From Marsupella aquatica (lineage: Eukaryota; Plantae; Marchantiophyta): a stretch of DNA of 64,000 nucleotides. A model generated the notes under the pieces. The model was not told where the DNA came from and made no database searches. It saw nothing but the letters and a program-made list of their open reading frames with translations. The DNA lies in NCBI GenBank assembly GCA_973895155.1, contig OZ316893.1, forward strand, positions 25,037,520 through 25,101,519. The letters are read 5' to 3'. Shown here one piece after another: positions 6,441 through 55,117 of this stretch (positions are counted from its first letter, which is position 1; every line of letters begins with the position of its first letter). A program made the translations under genes and the position numbers.

Positions 6441-7149
6441 CGGTTGTTGCTGCTGCTGACGGTCGCACCGAGGACTGCTGCTTCTTCTGCTGGTGGGTGA
6501 GGTGACCTGCCGCCCAGTTACTTTCACAAATCACAAGATATTGATTGATCTCTCCTCAAATCGAATTCCACGGAGATGTCGAGCTTCTTCGTCCCTTTCC
6601 TTTCGTCTCTTCTCCTTCCTCTGTACTCTTCTCGAATCAAATTTGACGGAAATGTCGAGTTTCGTGGCTGAAGACGAACTTGTAGACATTGATTCCGTTG
6701 TGCGAGAGCGGATGAGGATGCAGAATCATCATCTACGCGGTGGGCATTGTCGAATCCGCCCCAGACCTTGACTACTAATTTACGTTATGAGTGGGTTTGA
6801 GATGCGGGGGTTGAGGTGGGTTGTTAAGAGAGCCAGAAGGATGATGGTGGTCATTAGGGCGGGTGGAATTTTGATGTGCTTTGGATGACCCGAAGCACTG
6901 ATTTTATTTTTATTATATATTTGGGTGCTGGAGTTGAACTGGCCAGCCAGTGCATGGAGGGCCTAATAAGTGGGACCTATCTGAGATCCTTAATTAATGT
7001 TTTTCAGTGCTTTTTGGGCCCTGTATTTTTCGGTGCATTCTTGGAGGAGAATGCCCCGTCAAGATTTGGATCATCTCGCTCTGAAATAAAGATTCTCCTC
7101 TATTTTTACTAAATTAGTTAGAAATAAAATATTTCAGGCATTTAAAGAT

Positions 7150-8368: not shown

Positions 8369-9721
8369 AGGAAAGTACATAACCAGGCCCCTCTAGCATC
8401 TTGTAGACTTGATGTACCACAAAGATGGATTGAGTACTTGATCCCTTGGACGGTAGGCAGTCCAAAATCCAAAAAATATTGTAACTCGGGCCATAGTAAT
8501 CCGAATAATATCGTAGTTCTGCAGTAGTCATTGTTGGGTTTACCTCCGCTGCACAGTGCGCCACTACATGACTCACCACAAAACCTACAAAATGTCAATT
8601 TTTGATAAATCCAAAACACTTTATTGAATGACTAAATGAATCTAAAATTGTTTGGTGTGATTTCTAGAGTTCAACCTACCTACAGAAAAAAATTGGGACT
8701 TTTGGGACATGACCCTTTGGACATAACACTCAATCTCATGTCCTCAAAAATATGTGCTTGGGAACTTTCCTTAGGTCATTTGTTTTGCAAAAGCATAATA
8801 ATTTTACACTTGGACCCTTAGAATCTGTTCATTTATTCAAAGAAGGTATCTACACTGTTCATCGTAACTAGTGTTCCTCACACTAATTTTGAGAGCGTCA
8901 ATTTTCATGGTCTACTTGTGAATTAGTGTTAATCACACTAATTTTGTCATGACACTATCTCTGTGCGCATGAAAGAGTGTTACTGTGGTCTCAACAGTGG
9001 TAAAATAGAGTAAGATACTATTTTGAAATATACACTAGAACTAGTGTGACTTTGGACTCAAGATCACCCATTTTTTCCGTAGAGATTTGAGCAAAAGTGG
9101 AAGAAAACTGTTCTGAAAAACCTGCAAATTTAGTGTTACTTGGACTCACAATCCCTTTTACCAAAACGAGTATAAGTAACACTAATATTGTAGTCACGCT
9201 AATTCTTGCATAACACTAGCTAATTATGGTGAAAAGTGTAGCTTAGTTTTGGTTCTAAGTTTGCTCTAAGTACCTAAAGAAAAGTGCAGAATTGTAGATT
9301 ACAGTTTGTACAATAGTGATGTTTGAGGAGATGTTTGAGTGTTGGAGGTGTCTGAGTGTTGGAGGTGTCCAAAACATCCCAACTTTTTTCAGTAGGTAGC
9401 TTGAATGTGAGTGATCACACCAAACAGTTTTCAGCTCAAACATAATTTATTTAGTCATCCAATAAAATGTTTGGGTTGATCAAAATTAACATTTTGTAAG
9501 TTTCATGGCGCCCCGAGTCATGTAGTGACACCCTGTGCAGCGGAGGTAAACCCGATGGTGACTACTGCAGAACTACTGTATCGTTTGGATTACCACGGAG
9601 TTACAATATTTTTTGGATTTTGGACGGCATACCGTCCATGGGGCCTGATTAAGTCCTCAATCCATCTTTGTGGTCAATCAAGTTCACAAGATGCCAAAGG
9701 GGCCTGGTTAAGTCCTTTCCT
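8369..9721. mobile_element. Non-autonomous foldback/MULE-like DNA transposon with ~270-bp TIRs
   Basis: ~8369-8640 is the diverged reverse complement of ~9445-9721 (e.g. AACCAGGCCCCT..GCATCTTGT vs ACAAGATGC..AGGGGCCTGGTT). The interior is non-coding, with short ACTAATTTT/ATTAGTGT repeats. Confidence 0.75.
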
Positions 9722-14674: not shown

Positions 14675-15099
14675 AACACCCGATGAATATTTGTGTCATC
14701 ATAAAGAAATATTTTGAGCACTTTCGAAAGCTTGGAGAAAGCTAGGGAGAACATATATTTTGGTGTCCCAAAAATACTCATAGAATTGCAGCACGCCTAG
14801 GTGTACATCATGCCAAATCTATTTGCAAAGTATTCAACAGTTACCAACATCCAATAAAAATCTGCAATCTGCATCATCATGAATAACAGCTATCATCTTT
14901 ATTCAAAAATTTGACAACTTACTACCTCCTCCGATGCCAATAGAACACCATAGAATACTACTACAAGTGGGTCTAGAAAGTGGCCAAATTTGTGGATTAA
15001 TGAACACAAACCAGGAAAAATAAACTGCAAAGAATGGAACAATCTCTATCAATGTGTGTGATATCTATGACTTGAAACAAAGTCTGAGTGGATCACAAG

Positions 15100-18000
15100 C
15101 AGATAATATCATTAAAACTAAGCTCTGTAATGATATACCAATGGGACATATCACTGGAAACAAAAGTGACTCATAGATTATGAGCCACAAATAAAGTTTG
15201 TAGTGGATCAGAAGTGGGACATATCACTGAAACCAATTTTGTACTGAGACACCGGTCGGACGCATCACTAAAACTAGAATGACTTATCAATCAGACTTAT
15301 CACTGAAAACAAACTTTGCCAGAGATCAGGAGATAGCACTTGCATTAACTGCTTGTCAACTCAGGATGGCATATTAGCATGAACAACACCCATCATCTTT
15401 TCTTCCAATTTGAGAGCTCTACAGTTGAAAGCCTCTTGACATGAGAGTGATTATGTTGGTTATTTCACTCACTGACTACACTGGGGCAACAATGTCAGTA
15501 TGACATGGGGCATCTTCAAGTGGATCCTTGATTCAATTCAATACATGATTATTCAATTCATTTGCAAAAATCTGCAAGGAGCATTTCTCCATGTGGTGTT
15601 TCTGAGAAACTTAGATCCTATTCTGTGAGGGGCCATCAAATCTGGATTTGAACATCTCTCAGTGTGATGATGGTGACCCTGAAATGGGATATATCACTAA
15701 CAATAACCTTACTGCTGAGACACCAGTGGGATGCATCACTAAAACTAGAATGACTTATGAATCAGACTTATCATTGGAAACAAATTTTTCCAAATATCAC
15801 GAGTATGACATAGCACTTGGATTAACTGCTTGTCAACTCAGGATGGCATATTAGCATGAACAACACCCATCATCTTTTCTTCCAATTTGAGAGCTCTACA
15901 GTTGAAAGCCTTTTAACATGAGAGTGATTATATTGATTATTTCACTCACTGACTATACTGGGGCAACAATGTCAGTATGACATGGGGCATCTTCAACTGG
16001 ATCCTTGATTCAATTCAATACATGATTATTCGATTTATTTGCAAAAATCTGCAAGGAGCATTTCTCCATGTGGTGTTTCTGAGAAACTTAGATCCTATTC
16101 TGTGAGGGGCCATCAAATCTGGATTTGAACATCTCTCATTGTGATGATGGTGACACTGAAATGGGATATATCACTGAAAATAACCTTACTGCTGAGACAC
16201 CAGTGGGACGCATCACTAAAACTAGAATGACTTATGAATGAGACTTATCACTGGAAACAACCTTTTCCAAATATCAGGAGTATGACATAGCACTTGGATT
16301 AACTGCTTGTCAACTCAGGATGGCATATTGGCATGAACAACACCCATCATCTTTTCTTCCAATTTGAGAGCTCTACAGTTGAAAGCTTTTTGACATGAGA
16401 GTGATTATATTGATTATTTCACTCACTGACTACACTGGGGCAACAACTTCAGGACGAGATGGGGCATCTTCAACTGGATCCTTGCTTCAATTTGATACAT
16501 GATTATTGAATTCATTTGCAAAAATCTGCAAGGAGCATTTCTCCATGTGGTGTTTCTGAGAGACTTAGATCCTATTCTGTTAGGGGCCATCAAATCTGGA
16601 ATTGAACATCTTTCAGTGTGATGATGGCGACCCTGAACTACAAACAACCTTTGTACTGAGACACCAGTGGGACGCATCACAAGTTAGAGTATGCTTTATG
16701 AGTGGGACTTATCACTAATTATTATTTTTGCCAAAAATCAAAAGTATGACATAGCACTTAGATTAATTGATTGTCAACCTCTTAATTTTAATTTTTGTTA
16801 TCTCTTAGATTGTCCAATGACTTTAATTTCTACCACTTCTCATATGAGAGAGAAATGATTCTGAATACATTGAACACATAGTGTATTAAGTTCCCCTCAT
16901 GGCTTTTTTTCCTAAGTTTATGGTTTTTATTGAATTGAGTGTCATTAATAAGGCACATTGAGTTAATAAGTGAACACATCCTAGCACCTTTGTGTCACAG
17001 CACTTGACTGCATTGTACTTTTCATTGGTCATTACCTTTGTGTCATAGAACTTGACTGAACTTTTCATTTGTCACTCACTATATGAGTTTTTTTGCATAT
17101 CCTCTATTTATATTATTTTATCCACTTACATATCACTACAAGACAAAATATCAAGCTTGTTCCAGGATGAGCATGCTATAATGGTCATGCAATTCATTTG
17201 CAGAAATCTATTTAATACATTTCTCCATGTGGTGTTTTACAAAATGTAAGGTTCCATTTTGTTAAACGCCATCAACTCTACAATTGAACATGTCTAAGTC
17301 TAACAAGAGTGGGATATATTATTGGAAACAAACTTTGTACTGAGACACCAATGGGATGCATCACAAGACATGGTAGCTTTTGAGTAAGATTTATCACTGA
17401 AAATAAAGTTTGCTTTAGACCAGGAGTATGACATAGCACTCGGATTAATTGCTTGCCAACTCAGGATAGCATATTAGTATGAACCACACCCATCATCTTT
17501 AATTCTTCCAATTTGAGAGCTCTATTGTTGAATGCTTTTTCCTTTAAATATTGTTGAATGCTTTTTGATATAAGAGTGATCATATCTGTTATTTCACTCA
17601 CTGACTATACAAACAAGCTTAGAGTGAGATGAAACATTTTTAATTGGATACATGGTTATTCAATTTATTTACAAAACTCTACTAGGATCATTTGTCCACG
17701 TCCTGTTTCCAAGAAACATAAGGTCCAATTCTGTTAGCTAGGGACCTCATTAATTAGGGACCATCAACTCTGACTACAAGAGAATATTTATCAGTCTAAG
17801 GATGGTGGCCCTGAAGTGGGACATATCACTGGAAATAAACTTTGTACTGAGACACCAGTTTGACATATCTCCCCACATATCACTAGAAGCAAAATGACTC
17901 ATAGATCATGAGTTGGGACTTAACACTTGCAACAAGGTCTGTCATAGATCAGGAGTAGGACATAGTACTTGGATTAATTGCTTGCCCACTCAAGATGGCA

Positions 18001-18290
18001 TATTAGTATGAACAACTTCTACCAATTTGAGAGCTCCATTGTTGAATGCTTTTTGACAATAGGAGCAATCATATTTGTTATTTCCCTCACTGACTTAGAA
18101 TGAGATGGAGCATCTCCAGCTGGATCCTTACTTCGATTGGATACATAATTATTGAATTCATTTGCAAAAATCTACTAGAAGCATTTCTCTATGTGATGTT
18201 TCTGAGAAACGTAGAGGTCCCGTGTTGTTAGTGGCCATCAACTCCACAATTGAACATTTCTAAGTCCAAGGATGGTGATCCCTTTTTTGT
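15100..18290. repeat. ~477-bp tandem repeat array, about 6 copies, progressively degenerate
   Basis: Anchor CTGAGACACC recurs near 15244, 15715, 16192, 16657, 17340 and 17847. AACAACACCCATCATC occurs at 15382, 15859 and 16336 (period 477). The unit contains internal GGGAC/TATCACT sub-repeats. Confidence 0.92.
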
Positions 18291-19804
18291 CCCTAGTTTA
18301 AAAAAACAAAATTCTTTTTCTAATGCTGGGTGTTCTACTCAATGCCTTGCCATTAAATATCTAATTGGATTTTATAAACTGAAAGGCTCTTCTGTGGGCA
18401 ACATTGTAAAAGTTCACTAGAGAGTGCTTTCGCTGCAATTGTCAAAAACGCAAATGTATACGGTAATCAAAGTTCCACTCAAAGCTATTATAAACAACAC
18501 CCATCATCTTTATTCACAATTTGAGAATCCGAAACTCTTCCCTTTGCAAAGAGTTGAATTTCAATCAACTTGCTATTGACAGCACTACCATTGGGTGATT
18601 TTTTTATGCAAAATTATAAAATTCTTGTTAAGTTTGATTCAATGTTTGAGAGCTCCAAGATAATTTTATAAAATAATCACATCAGCACATAGAGTCCACC
18701 TCAAGAGTTGAGAGTTCCATGGTTTTAATGCAACCAATTCAAAAATTAAATTGAAATGAGGATGTGATATAGAACACACTTTTAAACCTTTAATTAGAAA
18801 GCTTCATGACATGCGGCCATCATTTTTAATCAGTTAAATTAGCTGTGCTTTGGATGCCAGCTTCCATTCTTATCATTTTTTTAATACTTTGTATTTGTGC
18901 CCAGACCACTTTTGTCGCTTCTAAATTATCTAAGAAACACTAAAGAGATCTGACTGACGAAACAGCTTGGTACTACTTGGCTGAACTTTTGTTCACTATT
19001 GTGATAGGGGCCAAAGATGACCGGACTTATATATTACCAGAAAATTTAATGTCAGAATAACATGAACTCTAGACAATAGTTCAGCTTACTGTGACCACAT
19101 AACTTTAGTCACAGCAGAAGCAAGGGCCTAGAGTATATTTAGGGGTGTTAAGGGTTTAGGAGCACCCAGTAAGTGATTGCCCCTACATGTTTATGGCTTT
19201 AATGGCAAGAATTTGGTCTTTTGTTTCACAAAACATGTTATTAATTAGTTTTATTCCCTCAGTAGTCACTAGAAGGGAACCTCCCTCACTTAGGGGGGGG
19301 GGGGGTTAGTGAGATCAGTCGCAGGATTTTAAGTTATTGGGTGCACATTATGGCCCCCGCCCTTGCTTCACACATTTGTGGCTGCTGGGAGGACCTAACT
19401 GGCAACAGAAGCCACTAAGTACATTTCAGGAGTGTCACATTGGGTTTTCTATGTAGGGGTTCCATGGGCAAAAAAATCTGAAAGTGGAGGTCTGACACTA
19501 TCACACCCAGTGACGGAACCCGGGTTCCATTGCGGACCCAAGTTCCACTACGGTCTAGAGTGGAGCCTTAGAGCAGGACTCTGAGATCGTAACTGTTGGG
19601 GGTCTGGGTGGTAAAATAACGGGGATTGGAGACAGGCCAAGTCAGTGTGTGAGGAGTCACCGGAAACCAATTGAAAGCACATTGGTGAAGAGGGAAATGG
19701 GTTTGATGTCCTCACCTTTATTTACATTGAAATAATGGGAAGTCAGGCTAGTAAATAATTATGCCTCTGCGGTACACAATGTCCAGTCACCCCTATTGAC
19801 CAAA

Positions 19805-25504: not shown

Positions 25505-27683
25505 TTACGAGTCAATGACACTATGGATATCCTTAGCAAAGACAGTTGCCATCAACTTGTCCATGGGGGATGATACAGATGTAAGAGCCGACATGATATC
25601 AGGGTAGGTTACAATTCCCTGCAGAGTTCCATCTTCCTCTGTCACCCAGACGTGCGTGGTCCTGTAGGCCAGCATCTGAGCCATGACAGCTGCTACCGAA
25701 TTGGAAGATCTGCATGTGAGAGGCATGATCCTGCTCCGAATGCTAGAATACTTGCCTCTCCCTTTGTACTGCACTGCGCATGTCAACAAACAAACTTCAA
25801 GTAAATTACATGCAGCAGCAGACTGGGAATTAGAATGCAGATGCAGAATTTCTTATGTAATTGTAATAGCCTCGTCTGTCATTGCGGCATACAGACAGCA
25901 AATACGACAGTCGAGGCCAATCATAACAGTTTTCTGTACGCCAAGGAATATTTAAAGACAGACGTTGAGTAGAGAAATTGAAACGTACATTGATAGTTCA
26001 AATCTGTGAGACTTTTAGTCCATAATCTTTCATCCTCGGAAATTCCGGTACTACCACCAAAATGATCCACATATCCAGTAAAGTCACCAGCTGACAGTGC
26101 TGCTAGGGCTAGCGCCACCCTGAAGCCACATGTAACAAGCCTAATGGCAGATATTTCCCCGATCAACAGCTGTCTACCTCGCTCCGCCCCCTGAACCACA
26201 GCCACTGCTTGAGTGTGTGCTGGGGCCTGGGGCCAAACTCTGAGAGCTTTCTTCGCTGGGTCAGAACACAGAATAAGAGGAGGGCTTGTGTTGATGATGC
26301 CTTGACTGTGAATACTGGTTAGAGGAAATGGAGCAAGAGCACCAAGACAGCTCAGCAAAAAACGAGCGACATCTTCTACGGACAGGCAGCAATATCCCAC
26401 GGGTTTGTCCGGCTTGGAGAGTTTCAGCTCAAGGTTTAGTGGAATCAGCCTTTTGCTACTAAAGGAAGACCCCTTGCACAGTAGCTTTGAGACTAGTTGA
26501 GATCCCGAACCAAATGGGACCAGCAATCTTCTTGTGCCTTCGTTGATCAAAGTCAGAGCGTCGATTAACCTTCATTGGAAGGAAGAAAATTCACAGATGT
26601 TCAGAATGTGCTAATTAATCCAATTTCCTAATCTAGGTGGCTGGGTCTTGACATGCATTCATTACAAATTTGTGAAATGATGTGGCTCTTTTTCTCTTGT
26701 AGATGTACCAATCACTCGCCTCGTTTAGCACCGTTACATACTTTGAGTACATTGCTAATCGTAAATCCTCCATTCCATCGTCATCATTCTCTTGCGGGGT
26801 CCATTCAAAACAATGCGTGCAGACAGGTACCAAACTAAGGATGCACAGAAGTATTGCATGTTTAACGGAGCAGGACTGCCACTACTGTCAGATGTACTTG
26901 CCAGCAGTGTAAATGTTTTACCCCATTTTTTATATTAAAACTCTGTAAATCCAGCTGAATCTGTCTAGATCATGTAATGACACTGAACAAATGCTACTGT
27001 TCCCATATAAACTTACAACCACTTTAACATGAGACGCACTCCCACAGTGTAACAGTGCACCCTTTGGAGAACCAGAAGATGGGTGTTTGAAGCAAATTTG
27101 ATTTGCCCAGTACTCGAGTCTCGCGATGGGGCCGTCGATGCAGTGCGCTTGACTAAGAATTTTTTCAGATTGATTATTGACACGCGACCGGAGTTCTTAC
27201 TCACGTACGAAGTGACTCTATTTTGTGAGCTAGTCGTCTGTGATGTAGTGTGGATTGTGAACGGGGGAGTTTGAGAATGAAAGGAAAGGAGTTAGGGACA
27301 GCTGATGCTTACCTAGTTCCTGCTGGAACAATCCTCAGGAGACTTGGGTCCGGGGTCAAAATTTCAGAGACCGAGACGTCCAGAGCCGCGATGGGATCGG
27401 CCAAGCTGGAATCGGAGCCCAAGTGTCTCATGATATCCACCATGCTTAACACGCCCACGAACCGCTCCTCCTTGGCCGCTGAGGTCTCGTAAGTTTCAGG
27501 ATTTGCTCCAAATTTCTCCAGACTCTTCTTTCGTGACACCCTCCACACCGGCAACTCGAAGTCGCTCATTTCCATCAGCGTCTCCAACGCTTCCTTCACC
27601 GTCCTTGTCTGAAGGAATTCCTTGAATTTCGGTTTCCCCACTGTCAGATCTCCCACCACCCTTGAATACAAAATAGAAGCCAT
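25505..27683 (-). CDS. CBSX6: CBS domain-containing protein, CBSX6-like (exons 27683-27313, 26569-25989, 25773-25505)
   Basis: MASILYSRVVGDLTVGKP...RFVGVLSMVDI...PAGTR|LIDALTLINEGTRRLLVP...YCCLSVEDVARFLL...LIGEISA...ALSAGDF...PLTCRSSNSVAAVMAQMLAYRTTHVWVTEEDGTLQGIVTYPDI. Introns are GT-AG with matching phases. Confidence 0.9.
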
Positions 27684-27794: not shown

Positions 27795-29169
27795 CACCAA
27801 ACGGTGAGATCCTGTTTGATGAACGTGGAGTTCAATACACCTGCGCCTTGACGACACTCTGATCTCCACAGAGATCAAAGGATCTCGTATCTTCTTATTA
27901 AATAATTACTGTTGAAAAGAGCCATAGTCCGCATACTACCAGCACCAGAGATGAAAGTCGCCGTCGCCAACCTGGTGTAGAAGCTCACAAGCGCCTTTCC
28001 GACCATCGTTTTCGACTCTGAGAGAGACTTTGACAGCAATATGTAAGCTGCGACACCAACGACAGAAGTTCCACGTTGCAAAATTGAGATTGGCAGTTTG
28101 GCACGCTGCCCAAGACGATTAGTCAACTGCTTTTGAAAAATCCTCGTTCCGCCGCGCGAGACAACGACGAGAGATCTCCTCTTCACAACGGCTCTTCTCT
28201 AGAAAGATAGACACAGACAAGAGACTCAAGGAAAACAGGATTTGGCATGATCCTCCCGCAGCAGCTGCATTAGCAACAGTAGCTCTACCGAACGAAACAA
28301 CACCATATATCGATCGAGATTCTCTCCAGTAGAGACCACAGCAAGAGCCACAATTACGCGCTGGAAAAACTACAAACGCACATCACTCTCCACATGAGGA
28401 TTCGACAATTCGATGGCACCTTGCTTCAACAGAGCAGCGTCTCCGTCAATCCGTTCCAACGCAATCCAAATGCAGTCACGATTAAACAAAGTCGTCAATT
28501 CGCTCGACCGCCTGAATCATCAACAGAGCAAATGACAGCAATGCCGGTCGCTCAGCCCACCAATTCGCTCGAGCGGGAGAGCGATCGGGAGCTCCAACCC
28601 TAGCCGAATCGATGGATCACTTGGTCTCTCCTCTCAAACATCAACCAATTGCTCCACTGATCGGAAAGAATGGCTTCCACCGATCGCGCAATGCCGATTA
28701 TCCCATCCTCTCGAGCAAAAGTGGCGTTCATTCCTCTTTGGTTCGAAGAAAGAGGAAGAAAACGAAAAAGCACAGCGTTTCTTCTCCCGCGTGCGCTCGA
28801 GGGTCTCTCGGTGAGGGTTCCATGGCGGCGAGTGCTATATAGGCCGCCCCCGCAAGAGACAATTCCGGGCACGTTAGGTCCTCCAGTCCCCGGCTTATGC
28901 GGTCGCCCGTCCCGTCGGTCCCACCCATACGACCGGAGGTTGATTTGCAATAGTGAGTCTCAAACACATAAATACGAAAGTAATTAAAGGTTACAGGTGA
29001 GTCCCACTTACACCTCAAAATATGACATATAAGGTGTAAATATCCTTACATATCATGATAAATTCACTGTTTTTATTTAAATCAATGAGTGCACGCCTTA
29101 TATAATCACATTTTGATGTATGATTACTGGCAGTGTTATAAGTGTGTAACTATATTAGAAGATCTTTGC

Positions 29170-32100
29170 TATTTTAGTTAAGGGCAGTGGGGTTTTGTTA
29201 ATGGCTCTCGGCTCACCAGAGCTTGCCACGTATGTCACTTTATACTTCATTATTTGGGACCATATTTTGGGTGTATTTATACACATGCTCGTTTATTGGT
29301 ACAGCTTGCAGTTTTTTCAAAAACTGAAAATCTTTCATAGGGAGAAATCCCGCGGAGGGGATACAAATTTATTCATACGTAAAAATGATTTACAATTGAA
29401 TGACTCAAATCGAGTCTAAATCATATGAATGTTCTGGACACCAATGAATGTCCGCTAGCTGTTGTAATAGTAAGAATATCTGCTAGCTATAATAGTAAGA
29501 TTGTCCACTAACTGTTCTCATCTATAATCTATAGTATCTATAGTCTATATCTACAATCTATATCTACTAGATTGGCCTAAGGTATTGCCAAGCCTGATGC
29601 GCCTCCATCTCCGCCTGCAGCCCCTCCTCCAGCTCCTCCACCGTGTGGGCCAAAATTAAGGCTGAAGGTACAACCATTCATCGTGCAATTGGTCAAGGCT
29701 TTAATCTTATCAAACACAGTGTTGATGACAGGGTTACTAACAGTCAGACTTGGCCGAGGAGCCATGCCCCTAAATCCAGGTTGAGAACTCAATCCATCCC
29801 AATCAAGAGACTCCAAGAAAAACTTAAAGTCATTAAACTGTGGCTCTGAAGAAAAATGTGGCTCTGAAGAAAAATGCAAAGGAACATTGGAGTCTAGCTC
29901 CTGTAGGGACGCGTCCACAGTCTGAGCCTGAACCTCAGCTCGAGGAACAACCTCTGCCTCTGTTCGCACCACCTCCTCATTGGACTGAACTACTTGCACT
30001 GGGACGCTTAAGTCAGCAGACTTGATCCTAGACGGCAAGCTTGATTCAGCAGACTCGGACACTGCACACATACACCACAAAGATAAATCATTATTCCATA
30101 CAAGATAACAAGTTAAAGAGTCATACAAAACTTTTCAAGAAACACATAACTCATTTATTACCTTCAGATAGTGCTTCATCCTTTGATCTCTTTACCTGTG
30201 GTTCATCCATAGAAGCAGCAAGAGCCTCCACTGGTTCTTCGCATGTACCACCATCAATGAGCACTCGCTTCCCCTTCGCTGTTTCCAAACTCATCATTGA
30301 AGAGTAAGGAGTGCCGTCAGTGGCAGATCTCACTGTAGCACGTACTTGAGCCTCTGAACTGCGATCGTATCTTTCATAAGCACCTTCACTCTTGTGGCCA
30401 GAAATTTTCATACCAACCTTTGGTGGGACACCCTCGGCCCCCATTCGTGAGATACAAGTCGTGCGTCCAGTTTTATTAGAGACACCTTCAGTACCAAGGC
30501 CAGCCTCTTGGTGCAGAACTTTCAAACAAGAGCCGAGGGTTTTCTCACCAAGTCTCGACGTCGAGTACCATGCATGCGTCCTGGGGTACGTGGTCGATGC
30601 ATTGGTAAAACAGAAAGGTGGCACTCACTGGAAGATGGTGGATCAAGCTCCTCAATGTCTTGACCACATCCAAGTCATAGTTAATCACAGCCGGCCTGAA
30701 GTGTTCTTCTTGATATCGATCCATACTTATTCTATAGTTCTTACTAAGCCTCTCGTCGTACTTCACAAAGTTACCATGCACATCAGGACCACAAATAAAG
30801 TCACACTTCATTAGATTATACAGCTCCTTACCACCACGAATGCAAAACCGGTTTAGTAAAAAGAAAACTGCCCTTCGCTGCAGGCCTCGCGAATGTGAAA
30901 TTGAGGTGCTTGAATGAGCCAAAATAGTGGCTTCATCAGCAAATGTGATTACAGAAGCTTTCTTTCGAGGTAAGTTAGCCCCTGCATTCCTTGACCGCTC
31001 CATTACCAGCACACATGTAATAGCTACCGGCTTGAAAAGTGGAGAAGACCGCATGTCAAAAACTACCTCTTCCTTACCTGATTCAACGATGCGCTTCTCT
31101 TGCTTCTTCCTCAATATACGGTGAAATGCACGGTAAAGGCCCATCAAGGTTTGGGACGGATAGACCTTACCATCCTTCTTGCAGACCTGCTCAAAGAACT
31201 TGGTCAGGAGCAACACACAGTCGCGGCCAGACATATCCTCGAGCGGAATGGCAGTGTTCCATGTCTTAAACTCACGGAACTTGTTTAGGCGGTTCCTTGC
31301 CCACTGATCAACGGCTGTGCTTGGGTTGCTACCACCCTCGGCAAGGGTACGCTGGAACTGCGCATCTTCAGGTAGAAACTCACATGATGTGTCATTCGGG
31401 AGATTAACTGTTAGATGTTGCGGTATCAACGATTCAAGAAATATATCGGGGTTGCCATTCAGGTTCTGAATTTCAGACTCTAAACAGGAAAACGAATCTG
31501 CACCGGATGTATTTTCAATCAGAGGCTCAGATGCAGTTTTGCTCGAGTCTGCAGTAGTCGTTGTCATTACTGACATCCCAAGGCTGAATGAAGGGGCGAG
31601 CTCTCTGGTGGTCTCTGCTTCATCATTCACGAGGGAAGCAGGCGATCAGTTGGCCGAAGCCTCGTTTCGGCTCTACAATGATGCAAGATGAGTATTACAA
31701 GGGAACAAATCAATGAGTGTCGAACTGCTAGCGACCCCAAGCAGTCTACATCTGAAGCGATCCGAACGCCCCTCATCTTCATCGATGGAGTACTGAACGA
31801 AACTGAATGCAAGATAATAGTCGAAAACAACTTGGAATGTTTTCGGAGGCATGATCAAGCGACTTCGTCCTTAACTCCTTAACTAGATTTTACTGCTACA
31901 CAACGGCAACAGCAGTCAGAACGGCATCGAACAACAGTCAAGCTCAGCATTGACATGAACAGCAGCATCGACATCCACAACAGCATTGACATAAGCGTTG
32001 ATAACAACATCGACAAGATTCAGCGACATTGACATCAACAACAGCATTTTCAACATCGATTGCATTGAAGTTTAAAAGCAATCAAGTTCAGAATCAACAC

Positions 32101-32863
32101 ATTCAAAATGACTAGCAATTGATATATAACAAAAGGGCAGATGAAAACCAAACCACTTTACGCAGCTTGCAGCCCAATGAAGTTGCACCCAACTCACTGC
32201 AGCCGATCGTCCCGAGCTCAGAAAAACACCCTCAAGCTCTCAATGAACATGTTCTTGAGCTCTAAACTACTCAAGCTCTCGATGAAGTGGACGAAGCAAC
32301 CTGACTACGAAGAGAAGCTCCGCTGTCAAAGCTCTTGCTCAAGCTCTTGCTGACAAAGCTCTTGCTCAAGCTTGACGCAAACAAAGCGGAACGCCCGGCT
32401 GAGACGGAAACAGCCTGACGGCGTTTCCAAAAACTGCAATGGGAAGTGGCCGCATCCTGCTGCTCGCCCACCCTAAGTAACGCCCACCCTGGAATCCACC
32501 GGCCCACTCAACAAAATCTGGGCCGTTGATTGTTAAATGGAGGGCACAGATTAGCCGCGGATTGAGCACCTAAATGGATGACCTAGATTGGCCGCAGGAA
32601 GGGCAACCCTATGGACGGATCAGATTTGGCCGCAGGAAGCATATCGTCAAAGCAATTCCAAATGGAGGGCCATGATCTGCCTCGAGAAGGGAGATCCTGA
32701 ATGTAGGGCCAAGATTGGCCGCGGGTACAGCAGCAGAAGGAGGCACGGAAGGTCGTATGGCCTATTCCCGATCTGGACCGTTCACTGCTGGCTGGCAAGT
32801 GGATTCTTTCAATCTGGACCACCGATTCCAGCTTTCAAAAGCCCCCTACCTTTAACTTATATT
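29170..32863 (-). mobile_element. Crypton-like tyrosine-recombinase DNA transposon, apparently full length (~3.7 kb)
   Basis: Contains a DUF3504-type YR gene. Imperfect inverted repeats AGTTAAGGGCAGTGGGGTTTTG (29176-29197) and CAAAAGCCCCCTACCTTTAACT (32836-32857) match at 18/22. They are immediately flanked by TATTTT (29170-29175) and TATATT (32858-32863). Confidence 0.75.
29577..31576 (-). pseudogene. Crypton/DUF3504 (ZMYM/QRICH1/KCTD1-like) tyrosine recombinase, ~631 aa after repairing one frameshift; intron 30062-30161
   Basis: Motifs LTKFFEQVCKKDGKVYPSQTL, FCIRGGKEL, YDERLSKN, WYSTSRLGEKTL, VSNKTGRTTCISRM, MKISGHKSEGAYERY, and a C-terminal NCTMNGCTFSLNF. The phase-1 GT-AG intron joins the last exon in frame. 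A frameshift lies at 30570-30577. The start ATG is tentative. Confidence 0.88.
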
Positions 32864-32971
32864 TAGGGTCCCCCCATTCCTCCTTAATGAGGTATGGGGG
32901 CTTCCATATGCGGGTCGGCATACGGTCGCCCCCAATACCTCATTAAGGAGGAAGGAAGGACCATAAACATA
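32858..32971. repeat. ~115-bp palindrome/hairpin
   Basis: TTCCTCCTTAATGAGGTATGGGGGC (32877-32901) pairs with 32928-32953 with one bulge. Outer arms TATATTTAGGGTCC and GGACCATAAACATA match at 12/14. Confidence 0.85.
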
Positions 32972-35559
32972 TACATAAAAAATTTGTGCGGAAATTCATG
33001 ATGCTTCACTTTTCTTTGTACACATTTACATACTATAACAAAGGTTTGGGTTTGGGTCCTAGTTTTGGAAATTTTCTCCCAGAATACTCAGGAAGGTTTC
33101 CTAGTGGTACCATCACCCTTCCTAGTGGTACCATCACCTATTAGCATTTCTACATTTTCTGGTCACATGGTTTAACCCCGCTAACACTATACGCATTTCT
33201 ACACTTTCTGGTCACAGGGTTACAGTCTACTAACCCTGCACTAAACCCTGTAAGCAAACCAGCATTACCCATGTTTATGGCAACAACACATCCCTTGTAC
33301 GCAGACCAACATTACCCATGTTTATGGCAATGAAACATCCTTGGCTAGAAAGTCCCAATTTTGGTCTTTGGTCACAAGTGGAAGCACAAGCTTTTGCAAG
33401 TTTGTCACTTTTGTCTAGGAGTGCTGTAGTGGAGCATTGCTGAATTTATAGTGTCTTATAAAATTATTGTGGATTGATAAAAGTGCGCAAATGTGGAGAA
33501 GGGGAACTTAGAGTCAAGTGTGGTACATCAAGTGTCTTTATATAAAACACAATTTTGTTGTCATCTGACGGTGATGTGTAAACTGTAAGAATTTATATAC
33601 TATATAATATAATGATGAAGTACTAAAATAAAGTCCTGTTTATGCAGATGTATTTGAATGTCAATATTGTTGAACTATGACGTCTTCCTTCATGACGATA
33701 CAATCATGACTCATACCATGCCCACATAGTCGACACACTCCATATGTGGTTCACCTCTTCTCCAAGGCTACATCCACACAAACTTTGATAAACTTTAATT
33801 CAGAATAGTTGAACACACAAGCTCTCTCTCTTCCTCAAGTAATTTCGTTACAATGAGCAAGCACCATGTACCAATGGCTTACACTAGAACTAGTATATGC
33901 AAGGTCACACACGACTAACTTAACCTCAGCTAAGTTCCTAACTGTGGTTAACCTAATTGCCGTAACTATGAGTCACAAGACTAAGAGCAATCCTTGACAA
34001 ATACCAACTTACTAGCTTTGGTTCCTACAAATTGGTGTTGACCAAACCTAGTAAAGAAAATGCAAGAATTCAGGTTCAACTCATTTATTGGAATGGAACA
34101 TTGCTTTCAACCAGGAGTATTGGATTACAGGATCTATGTATGAATGAGACTATACAATACCTGGCTTTCTATTGGGTTTGTTGTTGGGTTATCAAGACTA
34201 TCAAGGAGAACTATCCTCTTAAGGTTAATCTCCTTTTGAGTTGGCAGTGATATGACCTTTACTTCATAAAACAACAATCACATGTGAAACATAAGAGATA
34301 TCGAGTTCACCTCACCAGAGACTACATACACAAAATTACACAAGAGAGTTTTAGTGGAGTCTAAGATTGTCCTTATCTCCAGGCTTGCTCAATAACAATG
34401 AGCTAAGTTCCAATCAGCAACTAAGTTTCACTAGTGAATATTTATTTAGTAGCACATCTAACCTTCACCAACCACTAGACTATGGTTAGACTTAGTACAA
34501 TGACATAGTAACTCTAGACCCCACACGTAGATGCCTAATATATTACTTCCATAGGACAGTGGTTACTGCAAGGTAGTGTACTTCGTTCATCCCTTTTCAA
34601 AATAAACTTAGCCTGTATTTTACAATTCTAGCATGAACTGGGATGTCGTTTTGGTACTTATATAGAAAGCAAACCTGAAAAGCTAAAAGGGGTAGCTCTC
34701 CTCGTTAAGGTGGCTGGGCTACCTTTGGTCTATTCAATTGACCTTTCCTTGGTGGCCCTAACCGCCATCTTGCAATTGTGCAATAAATAAAATGAAATCT
34801 GGCATGCATAATTTTTTAGGATTTTGCTGTATGCATTGGTTTGGCGTTGCTCTTCTAATCTTTCAAACTTATCTCAGGAGATGGACGCGTACTTAAGGGT
34901 GCTTGGTGACTAGAGTAGTTTTTGGTGACTTGGTACTTGTGCCTTTCCTCTTTGCTCATGGCCTCACAAAGTTTTCTCCCAATATTTGAAGCCGTCTCCA
35001 CATGTCATTGTTCTAATAGACAATTGTATAGCCTCTAATAGATTGTGAATGGCTTTCAAACAGGAGGTGGGCCTTTCATACTCTTCTCACATAATGACTG
35101 TAGTCAGTGACAAGTAGGTCACTTAGAACCATGAACTTACGAAACAAAACTCTGAAGAGTAGTCCAAAAGGGGAGGGATTATTATATTGAACCGTTTCTT
35201 TCTCATATACCATAGTAAAAGATGGGTCAGAGTGAGAACAACTATAGAGCTATAGAGAAGGTCTAGGAAAAGTATACTAAAGTCATGAAGTGACGTGAAA
35301 ACAATTCCAAAACATACACCTTGTCCACCACAAGTTCAACTAAAAATACATAATAAAGTAGTCTAAATTAAATACAGCATGACTCCCTGTGGGTGCTCTA
35401 CTGCTCTCGTCTCCCACCGTAATTGGCCGACTGCGGATGACTCACTTGCGGGTGCTCTCGTCACCTCCACTTGCTCGTCACCCTCGCTTTACTGCGCAGT
35501 CAATTCAATATTACCAACTTAAAGTATAACTATACTTTGTCCATTCCCCAAATGCGCAT

Positions 35560-35641
35560 GTGGTCGTGCCGGAGTGGTTATCGGGCATGACTAGAAATCA
35601 TGTGGGCTTTGCCCGCGCAGGTTCGAATCCTGCCGACCACG
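35560..35641 (+). tRNA. tRNA-Ser (anticodon AGA)
   Basis: GTGGTCG/CGACCAC acceptor stem, anticodon arm CATGA-CTAGAAA-TCATG, long variable arm and GGTTCGAATCC T-arm. A TTTT terminator follows, and TATA-like and CAA motifs lie upstream. Confidence 0.97.
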
Positions 35642-36399
35642 TTTTCCTCATGTGTTTATTAATCATCTGATTATTTCTGGTAACAAGGGCATACCCTTTT
35701 CACTCGGGAGTGTTAGTCCCTTGATTGTTTTTCTTTGTAATGGTTGGTGCTGTTTTGGAAAGGAATGTACAATCCAGATTAGGATAGGTGTATTATGAAA
35801 TTTCTCTACTTATTCTGAAAATAGTAAACACTGGAAAACCTCTTAGGCCAATAAGTGTATTCATGTGTTGCTCTCAGAGCATTATGCCAAGCAATAGCCC
35901 TCCAAAACTTGAATTAAAGTAATCATTTTTTAGGGCATTATAGCCCACTGTACTTTCAACAGGAAGTATATTAAAAAATGATCTCAGGTCCCTTGCCTCC
36001 CCCTTTTGACTGGTGATCATTTCAAGATAAATCCATAACCCTAATCAATCGTTAAGAATGGCCCAACACAGAAAAGTTATCAACACCATTATTTATGTAC
36101 CAAGCATCTTGCCCATTGAGCAAATTCATGCTCTCATGAGCTCAATTGTGAGCTCATCTCACTAGTTGTTGGACATATTTGGCTTGAATTGCCACTAGAT
36201 GACATCAAGGCCTGGGTGATAAAGGTACAAAGGAGATTTGCTGTATTCATATCAGTGGTGAGACAAGGGTAGTGCTTGAGCCAGGGATGGAAAGTGAACT
36301 TCAAATATCCGTGTAGGAGAGCATGTATCAATTTCCTCAAAGCAGGGGTTCACAAACTAATTGAATAGGATTATTAACCAGTTTCTTGATTTGGGCAGA

Positions 36400-39158: not shown

Positions 39159-39706
39159 CTTGGCTCAGGAAGGATGCAACTGGACTTTGTCGTGATTTTT
39201 TGGCCACAAGACAGCCATTGGTTGCCTAGACTTTTTTAGTCACGAAGAGGTGAGTCCCCCCGGAAGAATAGTTTGTTCATCATTGTAAGAGTGAGGCACG
39301 CCCCAACACAACATCGGATACCCTTTGACACAAAGCGCGTACAGTCAGAATAATGCCCTGAAGAAATTTCACGTAAGCATTGAGGTACCTCCCCTGTCAG
39401 TGTATAAGTACATGGATGGTCCGCGCAGCGTATATGTTATGACTACCAAAGCGACCATTTCTATATGTAGTGAATCCAACCATATGGAACTGCAAATCGA
39501 GTCATGGTCACGAGTGCTTCAAAATTTGGTTTAGCCCTTTCTTCCTCGTAAATTGTGCAGGTATCACAAACTGTCCCCTTAATCGGGAGCATCTGATATC
39601 TCCACAACTTAAAAAAGAAGGAATGAACCCAATCTTATGGAGTGTATGACTAGAACTTGCTCCTTCTACTGCTCACATTCGCTGACCGTCTTGTTAAATG
39701 GTGGTC

Positions 39707-40306
39707 ACCGGCGTTCATAAATGGGAGGTGGTTGAACTAACAGCGAAGAACATGGAGTTCAGGGTTCTAAGTTTCCACGTTCTTAGCCGTCAGTGCAGTA
39801 CTCCCCTCGATGAATCAACTGCATCCCTCCATCACACCACCGCTTTACCTTCCTTACTTCTCGCATGTGCATCGTCTCGGTGTAGACTTAGCCGTTCAAT
39901 AGCAGCCTCCATTTGGGCAAGCTTCACCTTGCACGGCACGGTTCGTTCCTGTTCGCTCTCTATGACTTATGGTTGTAATCCACCTGCACTTTTGTCTTGC
40001 CCAGTTACCGGCGTTCATAAATGGGAGGTCGTTGAACTAACAGCGACGAACATGGAGTTCAGGGTTCTAAGTTTCCACGTTCTTAGCCGTCAGTCCAGTA
40101 CTCCCCTCGATCAATCAACTGCATCCCTCCATCACACCACCGCTTTACCTCCCTTACTTCTGGCATGTGCATCGTCTCGGTGTAGACTTAGCCGTTCAAT
40201 ATCAGCCTCCATTTGGGCAAGCTTCACCTTCCACGGCACGGTTCGTTCCTGCTCGCTCTCTATGACTTATGGTTGTAATCCACCTGGGCTTTTGTCTTGC
40301 CCAGTT
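39707..40306. repeat. 300-bp tandem duplication, near identical
   Basis: ACCGGCGTTCATAAATGGGAGG occurs at 39707 and 40007, and the two copies differ by few substitutions. Confidence 0.95.
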
Positions 40307-51282: not shown

Positions 51283-54200
51283 TGTCGCACCCCTACCCTA
51301 GGCCTTAAATCCGGGTTAGTGTCGTGGTGCGACCTCGACCACCAGTAGGGGTGAGGGTTTGGGCAAGGAGGTGTGTAGTGACCTTCATTAGCCCTAAGTC
51401 GGGCTAAACCGCTATACTTACTGGTATAACACTCGCATAATTCGTACTTGACATAGGTATATTTATTTTCCACCGCTGGAATTTTCCCTCAGTTAGTGAC
51501 GCGGACTAACTCCCGACTTGGGGCTTTTCAAGCCATCGACGTGACAGGAACTTGTGACATGCAATGAGTGGCAATCCCTACCATTAGTCCGCACCCGGTA
51601 CGTCCCTTAAAATGGCGCCTTTGCCCGGACAAAGCATACACACAACACCAGTTACTCTCAGAAACATTAGGGGGAAAAGACTACATTTACTCAGCGAAGC
51701 ATCAGTTTACATGGTTGACTCGACTTCAAAGGGGGTCAGCAGGCCCAACGGCAATCGATGCCCAGTCTCTACGAGGCCCTGCCTCGCACTTGCCCAGCAA
51801 GCTCGACTCTGGCTCTCACTCCTTGGTACGCTCTGACCCTACTCAGGCCGGGACTCCCCGTGCCTCGCCTTTCTTCTGCTGAGATAACTAAGCCTTCTCC
51901 CGCTTCCCATCGCGGAAGGGGAAGCCTAAATACTACCATAGCGGAAGAGAACCGGAGGATACTACCTTTCGGGGTACTACCTACTGACTAACTAACTGCT
52001 GACTACTGGTCGCGCTGCACTGATCGGTTGACCGTCGACTACGAGTGTGCCAACCGGAATGGCAGCGGCCAAGCCTACTGACAAACTCTAGTCCGTTGAT
52101 GGACTCAATCCTATGTTGGCTGATCCTAACTGACCGGCCCTAATTCTTCCTACTGCCGCTAATCGGCGCCTAATGATAGTCATTCTGTCGTTACGCCTAA
52201 CTAAAAGATGCCGCTGACTTAACCGCCTCGTGCGGCGCCTGCTTCTACCCTTCGCTAACTACCCCTTACGTGTGTGCAGTGGTTGGACCAGGGCTGGTCC
52301 CCTTGTCGGGGCGAGACCTCGAGCCGCCTTGATCAGAGGTGGGCCCAGGTTTTCCCCGCTGGAGGACGAGCAGGGTGACGCGGTCCTGCAAAGCCTTGTT
52401 GTCCCGTAATGCTTCCTCCGCCTCGTTTGCAGCTTCATCGGCTTCAGTCTGGAGCCGCGCCACCTCCAAGTTGAGCTGGTCGATGGCGTCGCGATGGACC
52501 TGGTCCTGCGCTAGCAATTTATCTCGTTCAGCGGAGAGACTAGCCACCTGCTGTGCTGCCTGCAGGAATTGTTTGTTGAGGTCGGTCAGGCTGGTAACCC
52601 GAGCCGAAGATTCTGAGCGTAATTGAAGCACGGTGTCGTCCAGCTTCTTGAGTTCGGCCTGCGCTCCGCTTAACTCCTGGGTTAGTCCGTCCCTCTGTTC
52701 GACAGTGCGGACTAAATCCTCGCGGCAGGTCGTTGCCTCTTCCTCGAGGTGCTCTACCAGCATCTGGAGACGCCCGATCTCATTCCCCTTCGCCATGAGT
52801 TCTTCTTCCAAGCGGCTGACGATCCGTGGTTGGTGCTCTAACATGAAGAAGGCTGGCTGAAAGTACGCCGAGACTTGTTGTCCGATGTATGTCGCCAACT
52901 CCCCAGACATAGTCTGGCTAAACTTCTGGACCAGGTCGTAGGCCATGGTCCCCGGGGCTACTTGGTAGTCCTCCATCCTCTCGGGTACCGGTGGTTCCTC
53001 GGCAGGGGCAATGAGCTCCTCCATAGTCAGCGCTGGGGAGGGAAAGGTTTCTTCAGGTGGTGGAGGGATTGGGGGTGGTTGTACTGCAGGTAGCGGAGGC
53101 TCAACGGAAGGAGGCGGTGGAATTTCCACAGGGGGCAGTTGCGGAGTATTAGTCGGGGCTTCCGGCTCGGGGTTTGTCCGAGGGACAGTAGTCCGCGTAG
53201 TCGGGGTTGCCTCCTCTGGGGCGGGGGTGACATTACCCGGGGCTGAGGTGGCCGTATTCTTTCCTCTGGCCTCCCGCCGTGCCTTGTACCAGGCGAGGAT
53301 AATGGCGATATGACTTCCCAAGTAAGTCTTCCCTCCAATAGCCATACCCTGAGCCCGCTTCAGCTCCCCCGAGAATCTTCGGTAGAAGAATTGGGCCCAG
53401 TTTCGTCGTTTGTACTGTTCCACCTGCACTATCGTGCAGAGGAAAATCTCGGATCGTGGCTCAATCATGTGTAGGGTAGTCCGTATGAAGTTAAGCCGCT
53501 CCATACAGGTTAAGTTGGTGCACGCCCCCTGCTTGTATCTGTTGTCCGTCTTACCCTCGGGTTTGAAGTGCCGCGGCGTATACTCCTTATCCCGAATTCG
53601 GATTTCCACCGGCACCGGCCCGGTTGGTAGGCCGAAAATTTGTGTTAGCCGATGCTCCGTGAGTGATAAGGTCTGCCCCGAAACCTTGGTGGTCGACGCA
53701 TCAGTGTCGAAATTGGAGATGAACTCACAAATCTCCTTCGGCCCGGCGGCGCACGGCCTCCATAGTAAGTGGGCGAACCGCTCCAACTGATGCTCCTTGA
53801 GATAGTCCGCATGTTCGAGTTTCTTGATCGCGATCCAGACTACCTCAGGGACGCGGATTACCTGTAATAAGTTGGACTTCGGGTTATCCGGGGGCCGTCG
53901 GGTCTGGTTGGTCGGGGGGTTTGCCGGGGCAGGTGCAGGCGCGGCGTCGGTCCGTGTTGATTCGGGGGCCGTCGTAGTCCTTGACCGCTTACGAGGACGC
54001 TGTTCGAGTTGCGGACTAGCTCGCTCGGAACCCGAAGAACACTCCGCGTTGATTACTGGATGGACTTGGGACTGGTTCGGCGGTACTCCGGTGGTCATCG
54101 GTTGAGGCGCTGGGGTAGCCATATCCCAGTTGAAGGCGTTGGAGCTTTCCCCGAGGAACGTGAGATTATGCGCCGCTTCCCGTTGTCTGCTGATGTCTTC

Positions 54201-55117
54201 TTGGCGCTTTTCGGCTGTGATCTGCTGGTCTAGGTACCCCGGAATCTTGTCGAACTCCGCTTGAGTAAGCCGCTGGTTGCCCTTCAGCTTAAAGAACTTA
54301 GCTGGAACCTCAAGAATCGCCTCTGCTACCGATCTAAGCCCTTCCTCGCTGAGATATAGTTCGGTGATGTAGTCTCGCAGCTCGTTATAGCTAGAATCCC
54401 TGGTGATGGCTGTCCTTTCGCAATTAACCAATGCTACCTTGGTTACCAGCTTCGCGTACCTTCGTTCGTAAGCGGCTTTCTCGGGGCAAGAGTACCAGTA
54501 AGTCTCGGAGAACTTAGCACCTACCTCGCCAAACAAGGTCCAAAATCCCAAGGCTGTGAGAGTCATACTAACCTCGTAGTCCGGTTCGTTGCATCCACGT
54601 TCCCACCTGGCTGGTCCTTTTTTGCGGAGGCCTCGCTCGTCCTGACTAAATCTCGCCACATTCCGCTCTTCTCCCTCGATAATTTCCTCGTAAAGGTCGA
54701 CTGGATTCAATCAAAAAGGTGAGCGGATGGCAGCGTCCATGAATTCCAAAAAGGTAAACGTGAGCGAATGGCCCATAGTGCCATCGGCTCCTCTCTTATG
54801 GGGGTGCCCGGACGAGCCCGAGCGTGAGAAGGTCAGGCCGTTTGGTCATTGATAACGAGCTGAAGTCGGCGTCTAGGTCCAAGCGTGATTCTTCTAACTG
54901 ATTTTTACTCCGCTGCCGCCACCGTACCTCGGTCGTGCGTAATAATCCCTTTCCTGAACTCGTAATTATTTGGTTATCTTAACCTACTCCTAATCTAATC
55001 ATAATGGCACCTTGGCGGCTATACGTGCTATTCTACGCTATGGCTACGGTCCTTATGACCGTATAAGTCCTAATCTTCGACCTGGGTTCGGTCAAGTGAC
55101 ACGTTGCCCGTGTCACA
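51283..55117. mobile_element. GC-rich LTR-retrotransposon (Gypsy-like) derivative lacking visible gag-pol
   Basis: Sharp GC shift. Begins TGTCGCAC, has GTGACA ends at ~51546 and ~55102, and finishes GTGTCACA. Contains a long accessory-type ORF. No TSD was found. Confidence 0.55.
52266..54776 (-). CDS. Retroelement accessory ORF (plant-transposon-like domain, Pro-rich linker, coiled coil); one TGA at 54711-54713 just after the likely ATG
   Basis: 814-codon open frame. Contains ICEFISNF...LSLTEHRLTQIFGLP...RNWAQFFY and a long heptad-rich C-terminus. In-frame ATGs at 54776 and 54740 are cut off by a single stop. Confidence 0.6.

What the first reader, a model, noticed from the sequence alone, without database searches (positions are those of the whole stretch)
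29170..32863. Apparently complete Crypton-like tyrosine-recombinase transposon in a land-plant genome
Seen: three separate ORF-track entries join, via one frameshift repair and one in-phase intron, into a ~631-aa protein. It has the tyrosine-recombinase catalytic series R (IRGG), K (SKN), xxxR (KTGR), H (SGH), Y (YERY) and a short NCT..CTF tail. No RT is nearby, so it is not DIRS. Known: DUF3504-type YRs define Cryptons and the domesticated ZMYM/QRICH1/KCTD1 genes, described mainly from animals, fungi and stramenopiles. To my knowledge they are little documented in land plants. Inference: a distinct plant Crypton lineage or a horizontal acquisition, and a potential eukaryotic site-specific recombinase.
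Basis: partly seen in the sequence, partly recalled or inferred. Interest (0 to 1): 0.85.

Follow-up and report, generated by a model that had tools for sequence, protein, structure and literature searches.

The report
Young liverwort tyrosine-recombinase (Crypton-like) transposon
This 3.8-kb repeat in a liverwort genome carries a gene, broken here by four extra bases, for a protein whose close relative is predicted to fold like the DNA cut-and-rejoin enzyme Cre; it is likely a young copy of a jumping-gene lineage of liverworts, mosses, clubmosses and ferns, with an unusual active site and unusual ends.

Summary
Real, but neither complete nor bounded as stated. A 631-codon minus-strand gene model holds; four extra bases at 30586-30589 break it. 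They are present in two runs and absent from all contigs laid there in two others whose flanks match. A 62%-identical Calypogeia relative folds like Cre (pLDDT >90 in the core; Z 18.3), and QRICH1/DUF3504 is the nearest sequence in the PDB. Named relatives come from liverworts, a moss, ferns and lycophytes. They form one group, apart from H-x-x-R DUF3504 proteins, with Lys at the His position (60 of 67; R-K-K-R-H-Y, as in topoisomerase IB). The host is likely a leafy liverwort. The family has very roughly 7-19 copies. The right end is 32976, not 32863. Near it lies an inverted copy of both ends abutting (32836-32900), like the internal complementary region of DIRS, with no reverse transcriptase. 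An end-to-start joint stands in 4 of 4 runs, probably a tandem dimer. Verdict: a land-plant Crypton-like lineage, a new variant. My searches found no paper on it; Repbase could not be checked. This scan noted dead fossils of the kind three times on other DNA; this copy adds ends and youth.

The parts
29170..32976 (-). Whole element, about 3.8 kb (strand = that of the gene). Left bound uncertain within 29170-29186
   Evidence: Depth above the flanks throughout; loose ends behind 32976; joint 32976->29186; flank contigs stop at 29206 and start at 32925 (table 8)
29170..29197 (+). Left end (3' of the gene)
   Evidence: 8-10 contigs cover 29214; matches the inverted internal copy 21/27
29577..30061 (-). 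Predicted last exon: low-complexity tail ending in an NP..F.KI...NC...F.LNFG motif
   Evidence: Frame; tail matches those of P0003 and P0010 by eye; MAFFT did not align it
30062..30161 (-). Predicted 100-nt GT-AG intron
   Evidence: not shown by RNA
30162..30585 (-). YR gene after the break: Lys (30474-30472) and Arg (30465-30463) of K-x-x-R, His (30396-30394), catalytic Tyr (30369-30367)
30586..30589 (.). Four extra bases that shift the frame
   Evidence: Relatives read through. Present in X1 and X3; in X2 and X4 the depth lacking them equals all depth there, 80+31.3 of 111.3 and 216.5+111.5 of 328 (table 4)
30590..31576 (-). YR gene before the break: core-binding helices, Arg (30838-30836) and Lys (30742-30740)
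32535..32725 (.). Two 64-66-nt direct repeats (32535-32598, 32660-32725; 71% alike); many other copies skip 32568-32695
   Evidence: joint 32567->32696 in 4 of 4 runs
32836..32862 (-). Internal inverted copy of the left end
   Evidence: 21/27 identity; best of 1270 tiles of the window; 4 of 3000 shuffles as good; 3 of 2992 random 27-mers pair as well
32858..32900 (+). Internal inverted copy of the right tip; overlaps the previous part by 5 nt and forms the left arm of a 114-nt hairpin (32858-32971)
   Evidence: 37/43 columns; fold -38.8 kcal/mol, z -9.6, 0 of 200 shuffles
32930..32976 (.). Right tip (5' of the gene)
   Evidence: Loose ends behind 32976; joined directly to the interior in other copies, 32712->32932 and 32734->32912

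Best explanation
This is a multi-copy element with one tyrosine-recombinase gene, broken in this copy, that is likely a young member of an old Crypton-like DNA transposon lineage of non-seed land plants and is predicted to move by recombinase-made excision, a circular intermediate and re-insertion without target duplication. Shown: the gene and its break, the fold of a close relative, the R-K-K-R-H-Y residue set, other copies, the right end and an end-to-start joint. Inferred: the protein binds a short motif shared by both ends and their internal inverted copy (T...TT.A.GG, 6 of 18 columns invariant in 4 sites), cuts with the tyrosine, joins the ends into a circle and inserts it at A/T-rich sites. 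Inferred: the joint is a head-to-tail dimer left by such an insertion or by unequal crossing-over, and the two copies have been partly made alike by gene conversion. Inferred: this copy can now move only with protein from another copy.
For: Fold: AlphaFold model of P0008 (Calypogeia fissa, 62% identical to the window core) has 322 residues at pLDDT >= 90; Cre is the top match, Foldseek E 1.2e-7 and VIA Z 18.3, rmsd 3.5, 299 aligned. Kinship: QRICH1 is the best PDB sequence hit, E 4.4e-18; Atlas structure rows 1-3 are DUF3504 clusters, TM 0.79-0.82. Lineage: 27-row plant-side group against 20 H-x-x-R rows, SH-aLRT 100. Lys in place of His is the type IB topoisomerase set (PMC2747268, passage), so it fits an active enzyme. 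Copies: summed depth about 7-10 (X1) and 9-19 (X4) times single-copy contig depth at both ends and the core (rough). Differences listed in coding sequence are synonymous in 13 of 22 against 0.28 expected, P 0.0025. Joint 32976->29186 in 4 of 4 runs, 2 studies, at depth 20.5, 38, 69.7, 65.6; interior contigs run at about twice flank depth in X1, X2 and X4. Circle model for Cryptons: PMC13465315, Background.
Against: No empty site or free circle was seen, and no enzyme activity was tested. No direct repeat of 5 bp or more spans the two bounds, whereas CryptonF and CryptonS have 5-6-bp repeats (PMC3212892). The letters inside the joint are not given, so it may be an internal copy in another family member rather than a dimer. 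Summed contig depth is not a copy number, by the tool's own note. The 22 variants are only the best-supported rows shown (40 of 575 and 40 of 617). The window pieces miss the DUF3504 cut-off; of the plant-side proteins scanned only P0070 passes it. Some copies lack the internal inverted region. The first structure model (9 sequences) was poor, pLDDT 43.5, with no Foldseek match at E <= 0.001.
Confidence: 0.7

Rival explanations
1. Same enzyme, other route: the internal inverted copy is a working splint, as in DIRS. A single strand (DNA, or cDNA made by a reverse transcriptase borrowed from another element) folds so that both ends pair with it, is closed into a circle, and the recombinase inserts the circle.
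For: Layout left end - internal copy of left end - internal copy of right end - right end, with a short overlap, matches the DIRS description (PMC3266345, passages). Arms of 27 and 43 nt are near the listed DIRS range (36-88 nt per arm in the rows shown). A read variant at 32906 in X1 strengthens the hairpin (-38.8 to -43.9 kcal/mol). Other copies hold parts of the region (joints 32747->32822 and 32873->32929).
Against: No reverse transcriptase or gag in the element; no long conserved inverted terminal repeat (tips 10/20 alike); pairing is only 78-86%, where DIRS extensions are near 100%; the internal copy is about 11 nt shorter than a full joint; the gene points away from the DIRS direction; some copies lack the region. 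Seen in one locus only.
Confidence: 0.17
2. The transposon ends at imperfect inverted repeats 29170-29197 and 32836-32864; the 114-nt hairpin is a separate miniature element that landed in the TATA at that end.
For: The hairpin is flanked by TATA on both sides and has 43-nt arms; contigs from either arm of a palindrome could pile up behind 32976.
Against: The right arm is joined straight to the element's interior (32712->32932, 32734->32912) and to its left end (32976->29186) in other contigs; shared sequence runs 5 nt past the palindrome; all four sites share one motif. No loose ends before 32858 among the 12 rows shown of 243.
Confidence: 0.1
3. A domesticated host gene, or a contaminant or chimeric join.
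For: Degenerate relatives that look like host genes exist in Marchantia and lycophytes.
Against: Multi-copy with defined ends; frameshift differs between runs; contigs identical to the window bridge flank and element at both sides (27804-29206, 32925-33695); the neighbouring gene is 83% identical to a Calypogeia protein.
Confidence: 0.03

Closest known systems
CryptonA elements and DUF3504 genes of animals (Kojima and Jurka 2011, PMC3212892)
   Same: One YR gene, no reverse transcriptase; DUF3504/QRICH1-like core; short NC..F tail also seen in H-x-x-R hits such as P0112 and P0138; low copy number with shorter derivatives; domesticated relatives.
   Different: Land-plant hosts; only 19-26% identity in the core; Lys for His in H-x-x-R; the paper found no terminal repeats in animal Cryptons, whereas this copy has end motifs, a hairpin and an internal inverted copy of both ends.
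Glomhoppers, CryptonA of Glomeromycota (PMC13465315)
   Same: DUF3504-type YR, introns, catalytic residues kept; their hosts live in bryophyte thalli, a conceivable transfer route.
   Different: Described with the His and Tyr kept and no detectable repeats. No named Glomeromycota protein was among the 27 hits that I looked up, so kinship was not tested.
DIRS1-like retrotransposons (PMC3266345)
   Same: YR integrase; internal region complementary to both ends, arms overlapping by a few bases, near one end.
   Different: No gag, RT, RNase H or long ITR; the YR is DUF3504-like, not ALOG-type (ALOG cluster rank 10 by features; ALOG domain Z 5.5).
Cre and type IB topoisomerases
   Same: Two-domain Cre fold; catalytic set R-K-K-R-H-Y as in topoisomerase IB.
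   Different: 11-16% identity; fold shows no specificity; no activity tested.

Membership tests
Tyrosine recombinases | Core-binding plus catalytic fold | tested here: met
   On relative P0008: Cre E 1.2e-7; Z 18.3, rmsd 3.5, 299 aligned
Tyrosine recombinases | Arg, Lys, Arg, His/Trp and Tyr of the active site | tested here: met
   All five in the window's frames; plant-side hits R 51/64, K 67/68, R 59/67, H 53/59, Y 47/50
Tyrosine recombinases | His of H-x-x-R | tested here: not met
   Lys in the window; K 60, R 5, H 0 of 67 plant-side hits covering the site; H 20 of 20 in the outside group
Tyrosine recombinases | Strand cleavage and exchange | not testable with these tools
   needs an assay
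Crypton (broad sense: YR DNA transposon) | Single YR gene, no RT or DDE transposase | tested here: met
Crypton (broad sense: YR DNA transposon) | Repeated, with ends in differing flanks | tested here: met
   6 contigs with unlike flanks behind 32976; raised depth at both ends. Left end less sharply shown
Crypton (broad sense: YR DNA transposon) | Empty site without target duplication; circular intermediate | tested here: inconclusive
   End-to-start joint in 4 of 4 runs, letters between not given; no joint across the element among the rows shown
CryptonA | DUF3504 domain | tested here: inconclusive
   Window pieces no hit; P0002, P0003, P0005, P0008 under the cut-off; P0070 passes, 31.7 against 29.7; Atlas and QRICH1 support kinship
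CryptonA | R-H-R-Y tetrad and place inside the CryptonA clade | tested here: not met
   Tetrad is R-K-R-Y; separate group in an unrooted tree with unnamed DUF3504 rows, no Repbase references. Sister or nested cannot be told
CryptonA | No terminal repeats | tested here: not met
   End motifs, hairpin and internal inverted copy
CryptonF / CryptonS | 5-6-bp terminal direct repeats; GCR1_C domain (F); TATGG termini (S) | tested here: not met
   No repeat of 5 bp or more across the bounds; no GCR1_C hit
DIRS1-like | gag, RT/RNase H and long inverted terminal repeats | tested here: not met
DIRS1-like | Internal region complementary to both ends | tested here: inconclusive
   Layout present at 78% and 86%; conservation across copies not shown
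Any Repbase or Dfam family | Already deposited | not testable with these tools
   no repeat library on hand

The most novel reading that the evidence does not exclude
Non-seed land plants carry a still-mobile tyrosine-recombinase DNA transposon of a new build: a topoisomerase-IB-type active site in a Cre fold, acting on a joint that the element's single strand forms by folding both ends onto an internal splint, a DIRS-like trick without its own reverse transcriptase. The lineage would predate the split of bryophytes and vascular plants and have given a host gene kept in Marchantia and lycophytes.
Probability: 0.17. Interest if true: 0.88.

Novelty: new variant of a known kind. Interest (0 to 1): 0.66.

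Why it matters
Cryptons are described from fungi, animals and stramenopiles (PMC3212892, Table 1), and their way of moving is mostly inferred. A young plant family with mapped ends, an end-to-start joint and relatives that keep all six catalytic positions makes the excision-circle model directly testable in a plant. It extends the group to four lineages of non-seed land plants, which standard DUF3504 searches largely miss. It also offers a eukaryotic Cre-fold enzyme with a changed active site, and points to uncharacterised host genes, such as Marchantia Mp5g04240, that may be plant counterparts of the ZMYM/QRICH1 domestications.

Tried and rejected
No whole genome is held for this window, so copies could not be counted or aligned as DNA. 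No RNA holder was listed; this says nothing on expression or on the intron. No family member in viral contigs (71 pattern matches, 0 confirmed) or in the first metagenome scan (165, 0 confirmed). The second metagenome scan gave 80 loci with short matches; the 5 that I translated were H-x-x-R integrases and were set aside. NCBIfam gave nothing useful; PHROGs gave only the general integrase family. The first PDB sequence search with 9 sequences found only an unrelated hit. Rfam gave two sub-threshold hairpin matches at the right end, taken as chance. A protelomerase-like hairpin mechanism was considered because of the Lys and the palindrome; protelomerases rank low (Z 6.7-7.8), which neither supports nor excludes it. 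A loxP-like core at 32848-32869 is only 14/22 palindromic and is a lead at most; two earlier counts were off register. The tree left out hits under 230 aa or covering under 65% of the core, 8 near-duplicates and 2 poorly aligned rows (P0006, P0132): 46 proteins plus the window were kept. No complex was predicted. Literature: searches showed no paper describing a land-plant Crypton; 25 and 102 were too loose to exclude one. No supplements were read; those of PMC3212892 and PMC13465315, and automated 'Crypton' labels in plant genome papers (listing, not opened), may bear on novelty. UniRef already calls the Marchantia protein 'DUF3504 domain-containing'.

Full report
1. The observation. Three minus-strand frames exist as described. 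Relatives read straight through the break, which is four extra bases at 30586-30589. It is no assembly slip: a 1030-nt contig of run X1 matches across it without a difference. In runs X2 and X4, whose flank contigs match the window, the depth lacking these bases equals all depth laid there (80+31.3 of 111.3; 216.5+111.5 of 328). So the lesion is recent and differs between samples. Whether that other allele is whole elsewhere is not known. The intron is supported only by phase, splice signals and the tails of P0003 and P0010, compared by eye; no RNA holder was listed.

2. The protein. Pfam is weak: no DUF3504 hit in the window pieces, hits under the cut-off in P0002, P0003, P0005 and P0008, one pass in P0070. 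A first model from 9 sequences was poor (pLDDT 43.5). With 86 sequences the Calypogeia relative P0008, 62% identical to the window core, folded well (322 residues at pLDDT >= 90) and matched Cre best (E 1.2e-7; Z 18.3, rmsd 3.5, 299 aligned). The profile's best PDB sequence hit is QRICH1 (E 4.4e-18), and the Atlas gives DUF3504 clusters of molluscs and cnidarians first. Five catalytic positions are standard. The His of H-x-x-R is Lys in the window and in 60 of 67 plant-side hits that cover the site (Arg 5, His 0), and His in 20 of 20 outside hits. Type IB topoisomerases have Lys and His at these two positions (PMC2747268, passage), so I infer a working variant, not decay.

3. The family. The profile search found 1681 proteins at E <= 0.001 and listed 150. 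A tree of 46 proteins plus the window splits 27 plant-side rows from 20 H-x-x-R rows with SH-aLRT 100; the window lies in a 7-row group with two Calypogeia proteins. The tree is unrooted and lacks reference Cryptons, so origin and direction of any transfer are open; a recent transfer into this host is unlikely. Marchantia and lycophyte members with degenerate sites group at 97 and look like host genes.

4. The host and mobility. The neighbouring CBS-domain exon is 83% identical to a Calypogeia fissa protein and 60% to Marchantia paleacea, the only 2 hits at E <= 1e-20: likely a leafy liverwort. Contigs identical to the window bridge flank and element on both sides, which rules against a chimera. 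At 80% likeness, summed depth at the left end, the YR core and the right end is about 7-10 times single-copy depth in X1 and 9-19 in X4; this is a rough guide, not a count. Of the 22 coding differences among the rows shown (40 of 575 and 40 of 617), 13 are synonymous against 0.28 expected (P 0.0025), as expected if the family's gene was under selection.

5. The ends. Six X4 contigs leave the sequence behind 32976 into unlike flanks, and a joint 32976->29186 stands in 4 of 4 runs. The unit is therefore about 29170-32976. In X1, X2 and X4 the joint has about single-copy depth while interior contigs have about double, with patches where two versions differ by 3-5%. The simplest reading is a head-to-tail dimer, partly homogenised, of which the window shows one unit; the letters in the joint are not given. 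Just inside the right end, 32836-32862 is an inverted copy of the left end (21/27; best of 1270 tiles; 4 of 3000 shuffles) and 32858-32900 an inverted copy of the right tip (37/43), overlapping by 5 nt; the latter makes a 114-nt hairpin (z -9.6). All four sites share T...TT.A.GG. This is the layout of the DIRS internal complementary region (PMC3266345, passages), but there is no reverse transcriptase, no long terminal repeat, and some copies skip the region. No direct repeat of 5 bp or more spans the bounds.

6. How it likely works. Shown: gene, break, fold of a relative, residue set, copies, right end, joint. Inferred (0.70): the recombinase binds the end motifs, excises a circle and inserts it without target duplication, the model given for Cryptons (PMC13465315, Background).

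7. Against what is known. It works like a Crypton in the broad sense and is kin to CryptonA/DUF3504, but it fails two tested features of CryptonA (the R-H-R-Y tetrad; absence of terminal repeats, PMC3212892) and is not filed there. Papers seen: PMC3212892 (abstract, Results part 1 of 3, sections 8 and 17), PMC13465315 (abstract, sections 3, 5, 6, 7, passages), and passages only of PMC3266345, PMC2747268, PMC8371274, PMC12130899, PMC11630846, PMC10288648, PMC3537659 and PMC9406493; no supplements. Searches showed no description of a land-plant Crypton; the library is partial and Repbase could not be searched. This scan's notes e1-7225981, e1-9517370 and e1-7303634 report dead fossils of the kind in other genomes; they are unchecked, and I tested only the claim on distribution, which my bear out.

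8. Verdict. New variant of a known kind; interest 0.66. The extension to non-seed plants is solid; the value of this locus is a young copy with mapped ends, a family-wide active-site change and an end structure not described for Cryptons in the papers read.

Noticed in passing
P0022/P0164 (Marchantia Mp5g04240, Mapa_012797); P0051, P0069 (Selaginella); P0038 (Diphasiastrum); P0081: Relatives with altered or lost catalytic residues, nearly identical between two Marchantia species and annotated with isoforms in lycophytes, group together (SH-aLRT 97; long branches). Possibly one ancient domestication. No paper named these ids.
   Followed up: partly
window 27312-27683 (-), upstream region to about 28850: CBS-domain gene, 83% to Calypogeia fissa and 60% to Marchantia paleacea; the element sits about 330 nt beyond a TATA-like box near 28836-28845.
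   Followed up: partly
window 33668 to about 34000: Very high-copy repeat with a sharp left edge and unlike flanks (depth hundreds to thousands of times the flank); in X2 and X4 a contig joins it to 31328 inside the YR gene, suggesting it has inserted in another copy.
   Followed up: no
window 29071-29133 and 33202-33236: Short high-copy repeats just outside both ends.
   Followed up: no
window 35559-35642 (+): tRNA-Ser (AGA) gene.
   Followed up: no
window 5526-6530 (-): SNF1/AMPK beta subunit in one unbroken frame; intronless, possibly a retrocopy.
   Followed up: no
window 52269-54710 (-) and 55074-55547 (+): 814-aa GC-rich frame without a Pfam family, and beside it a frame that recalls the end of a non-LTR retroelement protein (recalled, no Pfam hit).
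   Followed up: no
window 15000-18300; 39704-40303; 8369-9721: 477-nt tandem array; 300-nt tandem duplicate (96%); nested inverted repeats like a miniature element.
   Followed up: no
P0016 (Adiantum capillus-veneris): Family member annotated in one protein with PPR repeats; P0016, P0019 and P0020 are near-identical, suggesting recent spread in that fern.
   Followed up: no
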